21,415 nucleotides of DNA, from the IMG/VR virus record IMGVR_UViG_2617270975_000009, positions 1-21,415 of that record; one strand, 5' to 3'. This document shows, piece after piece, positions 6,001 through 9,000 of this stretch; position 1 is the first letter of the stretch, and every line of letters starts with the position of its first letter. The DNA comes from a virus. Lineage: Duplodnaviria > Heunggongvirae > Uroviricota > Caudoviricetes. The position numbers are program-made.

Positions 6001-9000
6001 TTTCGAGACAAGTACGCGCGCGAGGGGTATCAGTTGCAAAAAATTTTGCAACTACGTCCGACCAGTATGCACACGATGGCGGGGGGATACCATAAAACTG
6101 TTCTCTACATGAGACAGAGTGGTGGTGATGTGTTGATTATCGGCGTATATGCGCACAGGACGCGCTATGACGATGTTTTATGCGGGTACACCAATCACAT
6201 GTATCTGGTGTGATAAATCGCGTTACATGACCTCTCATGTTGTACTGGTGGTTATCACGACGTTCTGAATCTGGCCTTTGCCTGGTATTTTGCGACAAGT
6301 ACGCGCGCGTAGCATCGAAATAATCGGATGGCGTATGCTGCTGGTAATATGAAGACCGATAGCATTAACCGTAAGGAGAAAGACTTCTCGATAACGGCAA
6401 GGGGGCTGAATTGCGAGGCGAGATTAAGCAACTGTCTTGAACGTAAAAATCATGGAGCAACATGATGGTACGATTCATTCCATTCTTCGTTCTTTCTGAG
6501 CATTGCGTTCAGGCTTAGTCAAAATTAGTGTTGCGAGCGGACCTATTAGTAATTGTTGGTGCGATGCGTCTGTTATGGATTGTTATGGTTGTGGCAGGCC
6601 TGATTAATATCCAGTATGACCACCAGCTATGAGAGGCCACCTCAGAGGTTCGCAGTTGCAGGTTTGCACTCAGGTTCGCAGGGTTTTGGCTACTTTCACG
6701 TGCGAACCTGCAGAATTGCAAAGGACAACTAAGTCCTCTGGCCAACTCCCGGTTTATGAGCGACACAGTCCGCCTGGCGCATCGTTTTCGTCGAGTGCGC
6801 CCATCAGCTTGTCCATGGACTATCCACCACTCGATATTAAAGCTAATCATTGGTTGCCAGCCCGCGAATCAAGTTTGTTCTGGATCCAAGCTTCAACCTC
6901 CTCAAGCGACCATCTAGCTGATCTACCAATTTTAACTGGCTGTGGAAACGTGCCCGTCTTAACCCATGAGTAGATTGCCGTTTTCTTGAAGCCCGTTCTG
7001 AGCATGACTTCGCTTAATTTGATAAGGCGCATAGAGGCTCCTCTGCTTTAGATTAAGCATAGTGACAATCTGGCTTTGGGTGGTATCCAAAAGCGAGGTA
7101 TCCATGTTGGTATCCACCAAAACGCTGTTTACCAAAAAGTTACCACCGGAACAGGACATTTTGAGCTGTAACTTAACACATAGCATATGGAGTTCACGCA
7201 TAGACTTCACGCACAACGGCTCTGGCCAGTGAAGAATCACCCTGGCTAGCAATATAATGCCGATCACCATCAGAGGGGAATCCATGACACCACGAGAAAT
7301 CGAGCTGCTGACCATTGCCAAGCTGGAGCATGGCGGCCACCAGCTCAGCCCGGCAGAACTGCGGGAATTAAGGCGCCAGCTGGCAGAGGGCCCTGTAATA
7401 GCCAGGCGGTACCGCGAAATGATGACCAGCCCCGCATATCGCTGGAGCAAACCAGCGCCGCTCCGTGCGCGGTGAGCAGCACCTAACCAGCACTAGACAA
7501 GCCCTGTGCTGGTGGATGTCCCTCATAATTAGCGGTTTTTAAACGGCGTGTTGGTTCACGGCCTCTTTTTGTTGGTTCAAAAATGGGGTGTGTTGGTTCA
7601 CTTTTTGCGAATAATTCTTTTAAAAACAATACTCTTTACAAATTGAACCAACTGAACCAACTGAACCAACACCTTTTTGCTTATCTATATAATCTGAGAG
7701 GCAGAAATGATAAGGGACAGGAAAGCTGAAGAGCTGGAGTCAAAAGGGCTATACCGGAGAGCTGCCGCACGATGGATGGAAGTCATGCTGTTATGCACCG
7801 AGGACGATGATCGGGAATGGATAAAGCGCCGCCGTGAAACGTGTCTGGAGAACGTGAAGCGCCCGCCCGTGAAGGTTGAGGAATTTGGCGACCTGCATAA
7901 AGCTGTTACCGAAACGCAACACCGCATGGGGATAGCGCAACCGAACGGTAACGCCTTCCGGTTAAATGGCGGCAAGAGGCAAAGGTAGACCACCAGAGGG
8001 AAATCATCCTCTGGCTGGCGGTTTCTGGTATTTCGGGACAAGTACGCGCGCGCGTAGCACCCAATCGGTGAGGAAATAGCGGCGACCTGAATGGTCAAAA
8101 TCACAACGCAGCTATCCCCGTAAGCAGCGCTTAACGGAATAGCAGTAACCTGAATCCAGTGGGGAGGGGGTAGTCAAATCTCTACAGCCCTGACTATCCG
8201 GGACTGCCCGCCCCATCGTTTTTTTATACCCGCGAAAAATGAAATTTAATCCGGGCGTGTTTCATCCTTCCAGAGGGTATGACGTATGACACCACGCGAA
8301 ATAGCCTTATTGACCATCGCCAAACTTGAGCACGGAGGCCACCAGCTTACACAGGCAGATCAACGGGAGATAGAACGATCAGTTAATGCCGATATAGCCC
8401 GGCGCGACAGGTTCCGCGAAATGATGCGAGCACCTGCCTACCAGTGGAAGAAGCCAGCGCCGCGCAGGTAGATATGGGATTATTCCACATGTAACTTATG
8501 CGTATTAAGCAAATTTCCTTTATTCACCTTTACAGAATTGTGAGTACGTCAGTATCGTTATCCTTCCGATTCGCATTTATTCAGGATTTGCATGTACCAG
8601 CTAAAGATAACCATCCGAGACAGCAAACCACCTATATGGCGGCGTGTGCTGGTTCCAGAGCAAATCCCCTTTAGTAAACTTCATGCCGTGATCCAGTTAG
8701 CTTTTGGCTGGAATGACGAACACCTGTATATGTTCGAGAAAGGGCGTAAAGGTGATCCAGGTAGCGAGTATCGCGTATGGGGTGAGGATGAAAGCATGGG
8801 TAACGCGGCAATCACGCCACTATGGGCGGCGCTCCAGAATGAGGGTGACAAGCTGGTTTACACGTATGACTTTGGCGACTGGTGGGATTGCGTCATTGTG
8901 CTGGAGAAGCAAACACACGATACGAGTAATCAGCCCATTAGCTGCCTGCGTGGGAAAGGCACCACCCCGGCGGAAAACTCAGGCGGCTTGCATGGTTACA

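What the first reader, a model, noticed from the sequence alone, without database searches (positions are those of the whole stretch)
7548..7670. Second ori-like iteron cluster, an inverted diverged copy of the satellite origin
The cluster at 7548-7670 matches the reverse complement of 19758-19873 in architecture and largely in sequence, including an identical ...TTACAAATTGAACCAACTGAACCAACTGAACCAACAC stretch, with a diverged spacer. Together with the minus-strand alpA at 6847-7032 this indicates a second, degraded satellite-like element in the opposite orientation about 12 kb from the intact one. The two form a long-range inverted repeat that could drive inversion.
Basis: seen in the sequence. 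Interest (0 to 1): 0.6.

Follow-up and report, generated by a model that had tools for sequence, protein, structure and literature searches.

The report
Split second half of satellite origin
The repeat cluster is real, but it is not debris from a second element: it is the conserved second half of a two-part replication origin of one phage satellite (an EcCIMP1-type island), moved about 8 kb from the first half by inserted accessory genes.

Summary
Observation confirmed. GTTGGTTCA occurs 12 times in the window (0.16 expected), in two six-copy clusters, 7550-7670 and 19761-19871. Each has a tandem triplet, a 43-bp AT-rich spacer and a spaced triplet. They are mirror images sharing a 44-bp identical core.

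The window is a circular permutation (1-391 = 21025-21415) of one excised EcCIMP1-type PICI, with one attP core, one integrase and one primase. The minus-strand alpA is EcCIMP1 alpA_1, a characterised gene of that same island.

In many relatives the origin just after the primase gene is one contiguous unit of about 260-310 bp: Part A, a linker, then Part B. The window's two clusters correspond to A and B. Nine iteron types were inspected, and in each A and B carry the same iteron. Primase residues that track iteron type all lie in its C-terminus. Part B iterons are conserved far more than its spacers (97% against 65%).

In this lineage 1.8-8.8 kb of cargo separates A from B. No inversion isomer appears in 528 matching E. 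coli genomes.

Most likely Part B is a second binding and loading unit for the island's own primase-helicase, comparable to P4 ori plus crr. It may also control the adjacent PerC gene. This is a new variant of a known kind.

The parts
7548..7670 (.). Part B, the distal unit of the bipartite PICI origin (the finding)
   Evidence: Six exact GTTGGTTCA iterons. Homologous to Part B of contiguous origins in relatives. The cluster spans 121 bp in 13 of the 15 loci compared, and 112-113 bp in L023 and L027, where only five iterons are counted.
7550..7600 (+). Spaced iteron triplet of Part B (GTTGGTTCA at 7550, 7571, 7592; 21-bp phasing)
   Evidence: The iterons are conserved while the DNA between them varies.
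7601..7643 (.). 43-bp AT-rich spacer of Part B (79% A+T), a candidate melting region
   Evidence: The motif TTTACAAA next to the tandem array is invariant in all 10 Part B sequences.
7644..7670 (-). Tandem iteron triplet of Part B (three GTTGGTTCA on the minus strand, read as TGAACCAAC x3 on the plus strand)
7634..7677 (.). 44-bp core identical to the reverse complement of 19754-19797
7682..7693 (+). TATA-rich box (TTATCTATATAAT) between the tandem iterons and the PerC start codon; a similar box follows Part B in most relatives
   Evidence: Read from the sequence. The simple sigma-70 scan finds no full promoter here, so promoter function is an inference.
7707..7988 (+). PerC-family regulator gene, the first gene downstream of Part B
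   Evidence: Pfam PerC, E=3.7e-30. The MP1 and strain 6409 records give this gene the same RefSeq protein accession, WP_000617443.1, and the strain 6409 copy is 100% identical to the window's. The published EcCIMP1_025 is a PerC-like LEE repressor at this position (PMC11773190); equating the two is inferred from position.
6847..7032 (-). Second AlpA/Xis-like gene, at the position and orientation of EcCIMP1 alpA_1
   Evidence: Pfam Phage_AlpA. In EcCIMP1, alpA_1 is dispensable for PICI excision and transfer and supports helper Kapi1 excision (PMC11773190).
19758..19873 (.). Part A, the primase-proximal unit: tandem triplet 19761-19787, 43-bp spacer 19788-19830 (81% A+T), spaced inverted triplet 19831-19871
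   Evidence: It starts 26 bp after the primase stop, the canonical position of a PICI ori (PMC6092414).
19902..19911 (+). Linker motif CTGGCTGGCA. In contiguous origins it lies between Part A and Part B, so here it marks the point where cargo begins.
16976..19735 (+). Primase-helicase (zinc ribbon, TOPRIM, DUF927), the presumed iteron-binding initiator
   Evidence: Pfam. The helicase part matches PDB 8TCH, 'Pathogenicity island protein' (E=4e-12). The N-terminus is 34% identical to the P4 alpha primase domain. C-terminal residues 824, 840, 892-894 and 897 are the only ones that track iteron type.
427..7547 (.). Cargo between the origin halves: P22-like gp14 (DUF2824), gp7, gp20 and gp16-like genes (786-5444, +), then a variable region with minus-strand genes that includes alpA_1
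   Evidence: This region varies or is absent in relatives.
9688..9714 (.). attP core (TCCTATTATCGGCACCATTCAAACATC), the single attachment site of the element
   Evidence: The two collinear blocks against chromosomes overlap here. It is unique in the window. It begins with the TCCTATTATC core reported for EcCIMP1.
9870..11084 (+). Tyrosine integrase, the only one in the window
20140..21415 (-). IS629/IS1203-like IS3-family insertion sequence. It continues at 1-425, because 21025-21415 repeats 1-391. It is 1,310 bp long, with a TAA target duplication.

Best explanation
The cluster at 7548-7670 is Part B, the distal unit of a two-part replication origin belonging to a single EcCIMP1-type phage-inducible chromosomal island (PICI).

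In this family the ancestral or commonest layout, just after the primase-helicase gene, is a mirror-symmetric pair of units:
- Part A: tandem iterons, an AT-rich spacer, spaced inverted iterons;
- a linker;
- Part B: spaced iterons, a spacer (AT-rich in this subtype), tandem iterons;
- a TATA-rich box and the next gene.

In the window's lineage, accessory genes have been inserted at the linker/Part B boundary. Here they are P22-like ejection-protein genes, a variable region with alpA_1, and an IS. Part A therefore stays beside the primase gene, and Part B sits 7.4-8.7 kb downstream, directly in front of PerC.

Proposed mechanism (inferred). After helper-phage induction and excision, the island's primase-helicase recognises GTTGGTTCA through its C-terminal domain. 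It binds both arrays of each unit, melts the 43-bp AT-rich spacer, loads itself as a helicase and primes synthesis. Part B is a second such binding and loading unit. It either cooperates with Part A by protein-mediated looping, as P4 alpha does at ori and crr, or fires as a second origin. Because its tandem iterons abut the start of the PerC operon, initiator binding probably also modulates that operon.

Shown here: homology of the two clusters to Parts A and B, covariation of the iterons, selection on the iterons, and single-element status. Inferred: binding by the primase, melting, cooperation and promoter control.
For: 1. Contiguous bipartite origins. Related primase genes are followed by one array of 9-12 iterons spanning about 230-310 bp. 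This holds for 25 of the 57 loci scored, and the sequences are shown. It also occurs within E. coli (ABWA45, L089) and in a Klebsiella circular record (L091). The Part B halves of L025, L033 and L089 share the window cluster's spacer and tandem triplet (...TAAAAACA...TCTTTACAAA(T/C)-TGAACCAAC...).

2. Covariation. Parts A and B of each element use the same iteron, while elements differ. The types seen are GTTGGTTCA, TGTTGTCT, TCGGTTCA, ACGGGTTA, TGGTACAA, TGAGACAA, AGTGTGTC, TGGGATAA and AAACCGAC.

3. The initiator tracks the iteron. Among 919 aligned primase positions, the only residues fixed in all TGTTGTCT-type proteins and absent from all GTTGGTTCA-type proteins are 824, 840, 892-894 and 897 (RKS-PRI changes to GRV--RE). 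SaPI Rep proteins read iterons with a C-terminal winged-helix domain (PMC9371898). The helicase part of the window's primase matches PDB 8TCH, a chain deposited as 'Pathogenicity island protein'.

4. Purifying selection on Part B. Iteron positions match at 457/473, spacer positions at 398/617, across 9 homologues. Each pairwise Fisher p lies between 1e-8 and 2e-3.

5. Constant geometry with variable distance. Part A spans 111 bp in 11 of the 12 loci that carry both clusters (121 bp in MP1). Part B spans 121 bp in 13 of the 15 loci compared (112-113 bp in L023 and L027). The gap between them is 1,785, 3,305, 5,763, 6,689, 7,389-7,813, 8,294, 8,419, 8,648 and 8,844 bp in different islands and genera.

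6. Each unit alone meets the published structural definition of a PICI ori: two iteron sets in opposite orientation flanking an AT-rich region (PMC6092414; PMC9371898).

7. One element. There is a single attP, integrase and primase. The experimentally characterised EcCIMP1 of strain MP1 carries both clusters, and its Part B is identical to the window's.

8. Precedent. The P4 record annotates 10 'ori type 1 repeats' in crr, just after the alpha gene, and 6 in ori, 4.7 kb away.
Against: 1. No replication, binding or transcription data exist for either cluster. The EcCIMP1 paper does not mention iterons or an origin.

2. Part B is not universally needed. L029 and L030 have Part A but no Part B within 10 kb. 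E. coli islands with a different, DUF5906-type primase and different origin iterons still keep a GTTGGTTCA Part B in front of PerC (6/6 and 5/6 iterons intact). This fits a primase-independent role or a recent module swap.

3. In one subgroup of contiguous origins (L008, L048, L081, L012, L024) the Part B spacer is GC-rich, so Part B is not always an origin-like melting unit.

4. The structure model of the primase C-terminus was of low confidence (pLDDT 49) and gave no usable fold match. The DNA-binding fold is therefore unverified.

5. Split origins were found only for the GTTGGTTCA type in this sample.
Confidence: 0.6

Rival explanations
1. Part B is mainly a transcriptional control region (operator or promoter) for the PerC operon. 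The iterons are bound by the initiator or by another protein to time expression of distal genes, and the cluster has no role in DNA replication.
For: The tandem triplet always lies a few tens of bp upstream of a plus-strand gene, and a TATA-rich box follows it in most relatives. Part B persists with PerC in islands whose primase and origin are of an unrelated type (L004 and L088). Some islands lack Part B yet keep Part A (L029, L030).
Against: An operator would not need the full origin-like layout, yet that layout is conserved across genera: spaced triplet, 43-bp AT-rich spacer and tandem triplet, mirroring Part A. The iterons are those of the replication initiator and covary with it. The sigma-70 scan finds no promoter at 6800-8100. 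The TATAAT lies only 13 nt before the ATG.
Confidence: 0.2
2. Part B is a negative copy-number or incompatibility locus. It would titrate the initiator or pair with Part A ('handcuffing'), like the extra iteron clusters of iteron plasmids (P1 incA, F incC; from general knowledge).
For: It carries the same iterons as the origin, lies outside the minimal primase-proximal origin, and is at a variable distance. Uncontrolled PICI replication is toxic to E. coli (PMC6092414).
Against: Satellites need burst replication after induction. Part B has its own AT-rich spacer and inverted arrays, which is a complete origin layout rather than a plain direct-repeat array. The closest precedent with a primase-helicase, P4 crr, is required for replication rather than inhibitory (preprint 10.64898/2026.03.30.715334; and general knowledge).
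Confidence: 0.1
3. One reading: the cluster and the minus-strand alpA are the remains of a second satellite inserted in the opposite orientation, now functionless.
For: The cluster is an inverted diverged copy of the origin. A second alpA lies nearby on the minus strand. About 1 kb between 5883 and 6846 has no annotated gene in RefSeq relatives.
Against: There is a single att core, integrase and primase, with no pseudogene fragments. The whole unit is one circle. EcCIMP1 excises and transfers as one element, and alpA_1 has a demonstrated activity. The two clusters are adjacent, in the same mirror arrangement, in many relatives with only one primase. The iterons are under selection. The small ORF and repeats left of Part B are direct, not inverted, copies of sequences right of PerC.
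Confidence: 0.05
4. The two clusters act as an inverted-repeat pair that flips the intervening segment, as an invertible switch.
For: There is a 44-bp identical core in inverted orientation.
Against: Of 528 E. coli genomes matching a synthetic inversion junction, none covers it to 80% or more. All 43 near-full-length matches to the window are collinear. No invertase gene is present in the window.
Confidence: 0.02

Closest known systems
PICI/SaPI replication origin (Ubeda et al. 2007, 2012; Fillol-Salom et al. 2018, PMC6092414; Rep structures, PMC9371898)
   Same: Short iterons in two oppositely oriented sets flank an AT-rich region. SaPI origins hold 6-12 iterons immediately after the pri-rep gene. 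Iterons are specific to the cognate initiator, which reads them through a C-terminal domain and loads itself as a helicase. The window's Part A fits this description exactly, and Part B has the same internal layout.
   Different: This family has two such units in mirror orientation, and in this lineage the second lies 1.8-8.8 kb from the initiator gene rather than adjacent to it. The papers read here describe one AT-rich region flanked by two iteron sets and do not mention a second, displaced unit.
Satellite phage P4 ori plus crr
   Same: One primase-helicase and two separate clusters of the same iteron kilobases apart in one small replicon: crr just after the alpha gene, ori 4.7 kb away. The distal cluster lies between a minus-strand AlpA/Vis-family gene and a plus-strand operon, as here. 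The N-terminal primase domains are homologous (34% identity, E=1e-43).
   Different: The iteron differs: TGTTCACC is absent from the window. P4 crr is two 120-bp direct repeats rather than a mirror copy. The helicase and C-terminal parts are unrelated to P4 alpha by BLASTP. The element lacks the P4 sid, psu and delta genes. The requirement for both sites is established for P4 and untested here.
EcCIMP1, the PICI of E. coli MP1 mobilised by the P22-like phage Kapi1 (Pick et al. 2025, PMC11773190)
   Same: Same island type and same tRNA-Thr site between proA and yagU. The att core begins the same way. Gene order is the same, including two alpA genes, DNA-transfer genes and PerC. Both iteron clusters are present, and Part B is identical.
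   Different: The window copy carries an IS629-like insertion and divergent gp20/gp16-like genes, and it is recorded in the excised, circular order. The paper does not describe the origin or the iterons.
Accessory iteron clusters of iteron plasmids (P1 incA, F incC)
   Same: A second cluster of initiator-binding repeats lies outside the minimal origin.
   Different: Those are direct-repeat arrays that inhibit replication. This one has a full origin-like inverted layout. The comparison rests on general knowledge and was not tested here.

Membership tests
PICI-type replication origin unit | Two sets of iterons in opposite orientation flanking an AT-rich region | tested here: met
   Part B has three plus three exact iterons around a 43-bp spacer of 79% A+T. 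The definition is taken from PMC6092414 and PMC9371898.
PICI-type replication origin unit | Located immediately 3' of the pri-rep gene | tested here: not met
   In the integrated order, Part B lies 7.4 kb (8.7 kb with the IS) downstream of Part A, which itself abuts the primase stop. The feature is met for Part A, and for Part B in relatives with contiguous origins.
PICI-type replication origin unit | Iterons cognate to the element's own initiator | tested here: met
   The evidence is indirect. The iteron is the same as in Part A. The A and B iterons covary across 9 iteron types. Primase C-terminal residues covary with iteron type.
PICI-type replication origin unit | Supports initiator-dependent replication of a plasmid | not testable with these tools
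   This needs the pri-ori plasmid maintenance assay of Fillol-Salom et al. 2018.
P4 crr/ori-type dual cis-acting replication sites | Two separate clusters of one iteron kilobases apart in one replicon with one primase-helicase | tested here: met
   The P4 layout was verified from the NC_001609 annotation.
P4 crr/ori-type dual cis-acting replication sites | Sequence relationship to P4 (iteron TGTTCACC; alpha-type origin-binding domain) | tested here: not met
   TGTTCACC is absent from the window. Only the N-terminal primase domain aligns with P4 alpha.
P4 crr/ori-type dual cis-acting replication sites | Both sites bound by the initiator and both required in cis | not testable with these tools
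   No experimental data exist. Islands lacking a cognate Part B (L029, L030, L004, L088) suggest it may not be indispensable.
Remnant of an independent second satellite | Own integrase or att sites, or remnants of its own primase, near the cluster | tested here: not met
   tblastn with the integrase and primase finds only the intact genes. The att core is unique. The window closes into one circle.
Remnant of an independent second satellite | Neutral decay of the repeats | tested here: not met
   Iteron positions are 97% conserved against 65% for spacers across genera.
Invertible segment bounded by inverted repeats | Both orientations observed among genomes | tested here: not met
   None of 528 matching E. 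coli genomes carries the predicted inversion junction.
EcCIMP1-type PICI (context of the finding) | Integration at tRNA-Thr between proA and yagU, att core TCCTATTATC, int-alpA-...-primase-DNA transfer genes-alpA_1-PerC order | tested here: met
   compared with PMC11773190.

The most novel reading that the evidence does not exclude
Origins of this PICI family are intrinsically double: two mirror-image initiator-loading units. The two units keep working together when up to about 9 kb of accessory DNA is inserted between them, through looping mediated by the primase-helicase. This would be a PICI counterpart of P4 ori/crr. The linker between the units would then be the family's preferred cargo-insertion site, so accessory genes such as the P22-like ejection proteins are carried inside the origin. 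Initiator binding at the distal unit would also switch on the distal PerC operon.
Probability: 0.3. Interest if true: 0.65.

Novelty: new variant of a known kind. Interest (0 to 1): 0.5.

Why it matters
PICI origins are described as one block of iterons beside the initiator gene. A conserved second unit that can sit kilobases away has three consequences.

- It changes how origins and minimal replicons of these satellites should be delimited. That matters for engineered PICI delivery vehicles and for tools that detect satellites.
- It offers a second natural system, besides P4, for studying how a self-loading primase-helicase uses two distant sites.
- It identifies the junction between the two units as a place where accessory genes accumulate.

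The host element, EcCIMP1, and its helper phage Kapi1 are already genetically tractable, so the predictions can be tested directly.

Tried and rejected
- Second degraded satellite: rejected. No second att, integrase or primase remnants were found. The layout is the same in the characterised single PICI EcCIMP1.
- Inversion switch: a synthetic inversion junction found no isomer in the complete E. coli genomes.
- Structured RNA: Rfam with permissive thresholds on 6700-8300 found nothing.
- Sigma-70 promoter or terminator scan of 6800-8100: nothing above background.
- Fold of the primase C-terminus (residues 795-919, 7-sequence alignment): pLDDT 48.9. The Foldseek search against PDB gave no match at E of 0.001 or better, so it is unusable.
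- Searching IMG/VR for the exact attP junction: no match. The same region has no match in the phage collection.
- Primary P4 ori/crr literature was not available in the library. I used the NC_001609 feature table instead.
- Searching for Part B in phage genomes gave one Klebsiella phage record, which was not followed up.
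Full report
**1. The observation**

The 9-mer GTTGGTTCA occurs exactly 12 times in the window, against 0.16 expected from dinucleotide-preserving shuffles. All copies fall in two clusters.
- Left cluster: three copies on the + strand at 7550, 7571 and 7592 (21-bp phasing), then a 43-bp spacer, then three contiguous copies on the - strand at 7644-7670.
- Right cluster: three contiguous copies on + at 19761-19787, a 43-bp spacer, then three on - at 19831, 19842 and 19863.

Allowing one mismatch adds only four scattered hits. The left cluster aligns to the reverse complement of the right one at 82% identity. 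A 65-nt arm is 92% complementary, and 44 bp are identical (7634-7677 and 19754-19797).

**2. What the window is**

Bases 1-391 are identical to 21025-21415, so the window is a 21,024-bp circle written out with an overlap.

Compared with complete E. coli chromosomes, it splits into two collinear blocks that overlap at 9688-9714. In the chromosome the order is:
- tRNA-Thr, integrase, alpA, and so on to the primase, then Part A;
- P22-like DUF2824, gp7, gp20 and gp16-like genes;
- a variable region with minus-strand genes that includes a second alpA;
- Part B, PerC, a PRiA4_ORF3-family gene and attR.

All of this lies between proA and the pao/yagU genes. The overlap (TCCTATTATCGGCACCATTCAAACATC) is the att core and occurs once. 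An IS629/IS1203-like element of 1,310 bp, with a TAA target duplication, sits between Part A and the cargo genes.

The element is an EcCIMP1-type PICI. In E. coli MP1 the same island was shown to excise, circularise and be transduced as one 19,963-bp unit, but only with helper phage Kapi1. Its flanking core repeat is TCCTATTATC (PMC11773190). The MP1 locus carries both iteron clusters, and its left-type cluster is identical to the window's.

The minus-strand alpA (6847-7032; Pfam Phage_AlpA) corresponds to EcCIMP1 alpA_1. That gene is dispensable for the PICI cycle, and it can stand in for the helper's excisionase.

tblastn with the integrase and the primase finds no second copies or fragments. 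The 'second degraded satellite' reading is therefore not supported.

**3. Relatives show what the cluster is**

I collected 80 loci encoding relatives of the primase from one genome per species. An iteron array follows the stop codon of nearly all full-length primase relatives.

In 25 of the 57 loci scored, the array is one contiguous block of 9-12 iterons spanning about 230-310 bp. Its layout is mirror-symmetric:
- tandem iterons, an AT-rich spacer, spaced inverted iterons (Part A);
- a linker containing CTGGCTGGCAG;
- spaced iterons, a spacer, tandem iterons (Part B);
- a T-rich, TATA-rich stretch and the next gene, often PerC.

The window's right cluster is Part A. It is still followed by CTGGCTGGCA at 19902-19911. 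The window's left cluster is Part B. Its spacer and tandem triplet match Part B of contiguous origins in Erwinia (L025), Morganella (L033) and E. coli ABWA45 (L089).

The split arrangement also occurs in Lonsdalea, Chimaeribacter, Pantoea, Leclercia and Cedecea, and in several E. coli islands. The gaps run from 1,785 to 8,844 bp. The units themselves are nearly constant in length. Part A spans 111 bp in 11 of the 12 loci that carry both clusters (121 bp in MP1). Part B spans 121 bp in 13 of the 15 loci compared.

Small circular records filed as plasmids are the same kind of island: 12.2 kb in E. coli, 17.8 kb in Raoultella and 19.2 kb in Klebsiella.

**4. Evidence that Part B is functional and cognate to the island's primase**

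(a) Covariation. Elements differ in iteron sequence, with nine types seen, but Parts A and B of any one element carry the same iteron.

(b) The initiator tracks the iteron. I compared 19 GTTGGTTCA-type with 5 TGTTGTCT-type primases, which are about 80% identical overall. The only positions fixed in one group and absent from the other are 824, 840, 892-894 and 897, all in the C-terminal 100 residues. The TCGGTTCA type has a Ser-to-Thr change in the same motif. [quoted passage not shown] The helicase part of this primase matches PDB 8TCH, deposited as 'Pathogenicity island protein'. Its N-terminus matches the P4 alpha primase domain.

(c) Selection. Across nine Part B homologues, iteron positions match the window at 457/473 and spacer positions at 398/617.

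(d) Age. Part A and Part B spacers form two distinct conserved sets across genera. The duplication is therefore old, and both copies have been kept.

**5. How it most likely works**

Each unit by itself has the published PICI origin layout: opposed iteron sets around an AT-rich region.

I propose that the primase-helicase binds both units and melts the 43-bp spacers. Part B then either cooperates with Part A by looping or fires as a second origin.

The closest precedent is P4. Its record annotates ten type-1 repeats in crr, just after the alpha gene, and six in ori, 4.7 kb away. The P4 ori lies between the minus-strand vis gene (AlpA family) and the plus-strand sid operon. The window has a comparable local arrangement, with alpA_1 on the minus strand, then Part B, then PerC.

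Because the tandem triplet lies 36 bp before the PerC start codon, with a TATA-rich box in between, initiator binding may also regulate that operon. A simple sigma-70 scan found no promoter there, so this step is inference.

**6. Evidence that cuts the other way**

Two loci with Part A show no Part B within 10 kb (L029, L030).

E. coli islands with a DUF5906-type primase and a different origin (iterons CCTGTACCACCTATACCA) still carry a GTTGGTTCA Part B before PerC, with 6/6 and 5/6 iterons intact. Part B can therefore persist without a cognate primase in the island. This fits either a recent module swap or a primase-independent role such as operon control.

One subgroup of contiguous origins has a GC-rich Part B spacer.

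No replication or binding data exist. The structure model of the primase C-terminus was too poor to use.

**7. Inversion**

The 44-bp identical core could support occasional homologous recombination. However, a query built as the predicted inversion junction is covered to 80% or more in none of 528 matching complete E. coli genomes. All 43 near-full-length matches to the window are collinear.

**8. Verdict**

The cluster is the distal half of a bipartite PICI origin that has been separated from the proximal half by cargo. The PICI itself, its alpA_1 and its PerC are already published. The bipartite and split origin is not mentioned in the papers read here. I rate it a new variant of a known kind, of moderate interest.

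Noticed in passing
window 1-391 and 21025-21415; 9688-9714: The window is a 21,024-bp circle written with a 391-bp overlap. It carries the joined attachment site (attP), so it is the excised form of the island rather than the chromosomal form.
   Followed up: yes
window 20140-21024 plus 1-425: An IS629/IS1203-like IS3-family insertion sequence (1,310 bp, 26-nt terminal inverted repeats, TAA target duplication) is inserted between origin Part A and the DUF2824 gene. It is absent at this position from most chromosomal copies of the island.
   Followed up: partly
window 786-5444: The satellite carries a P22-like set of genes: DUF2824 (gp14-like), gp7, gp20 and a 701-aa gp16/DNA-transfer-like protein. 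They lie between the two origin halves. Their role is unknown; candidates include replacing helper ejection proteins, packaging, and exclusion. EcCIMP1 authors list them as candidate packaging or DNA-transfer genes.
   Followed up: partly
L004 11990-12160 and L088 12980-13170: E. coli islands at the dinD/yicG site have a DUF5906-type primase and a different origin, yet they keep an 'orphan' GTTGGTTCA Part B in front of PerC (6/6 and 5/6 iterons intact).
   Followed up: partly
window 19902-19911; also L004 ~3940-3952: The motif CTGGCTGGCA(G) follows Part A in every iteron type, and it even follows the unrelated DUF5906-type origin. With one mismatch allowed it occurs 12 times in the window against 1.9 expected. 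It contains two CTG triplets, the DnaG-type priming signal, but its function is unknown.
   Followed up: no
window 7257-7475 and 8286-8471; 6282-6319 and 8025-8064: Two small paralogous ORFs (77% nucleotide identity) and a 38-nt repeat lie in direct orientation on either side of Part B and PerC. This suggests a past duplication of the region downstream of PerC.
   Followed up: no
L017 ~18640-18660, L023 ~21540-21566, L027 ~21735-21762, L042 ~13030 and ~19645-19665: Repeated GTAAGACAG motifs precede Part B in four genera. In Cedecea they also follow the Part A linker. They may be a recombination or regulatory site at the cargo junctions.
   Followed up: no
window 9605-9626 / 9817-9838 and 9722-9742 / 9785-9805: Two pairs of direct repeats flank the att core and precede the integrase gene. 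They are probably arm-type integrase or excisionase binding sites.
   Followed up: no
PLSDB records NZ_CP148430.1 (L093), NZ_CP146545.1 (L090), CP031370.2 (L091): Small 'non-mobilizable plasmids' of 12-19 kb in E. coli, Raoultella and Klebsiella are circular PICIs of this family, with integrase, primase, origin and PerC. They are evidently satellites assembled in their episomal form.
   Followed up: partly
L089 (E. coli ABWA45) 3742-15121: A related PICI with a contiguous 12-iteron origin is inserted among the head-morphogenesis genes of a prophage.
   Followed up: no
window 16976-19735: The initiator is a mosaic. Its N-terminal zinc-ribbon and TOPRIM primase is 34% identical to P4 alpha. It is joined to a DUF927 helicase that matches PDB 8TCH ('Pathogenicity island protein'). 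A short C-terminal motif (RKSPRI) tracks iteron specificity.
   Followed up: partly
L008, L048, L081, L012, L024, Part B spacers: One subgroup of contiguous origins has a GC-rich Part B spacer (aaacccagtgctggcgcggcctg...) in place of the AT-rich one. Two structural kinds of Part B therefore exist.
   Followed up: no
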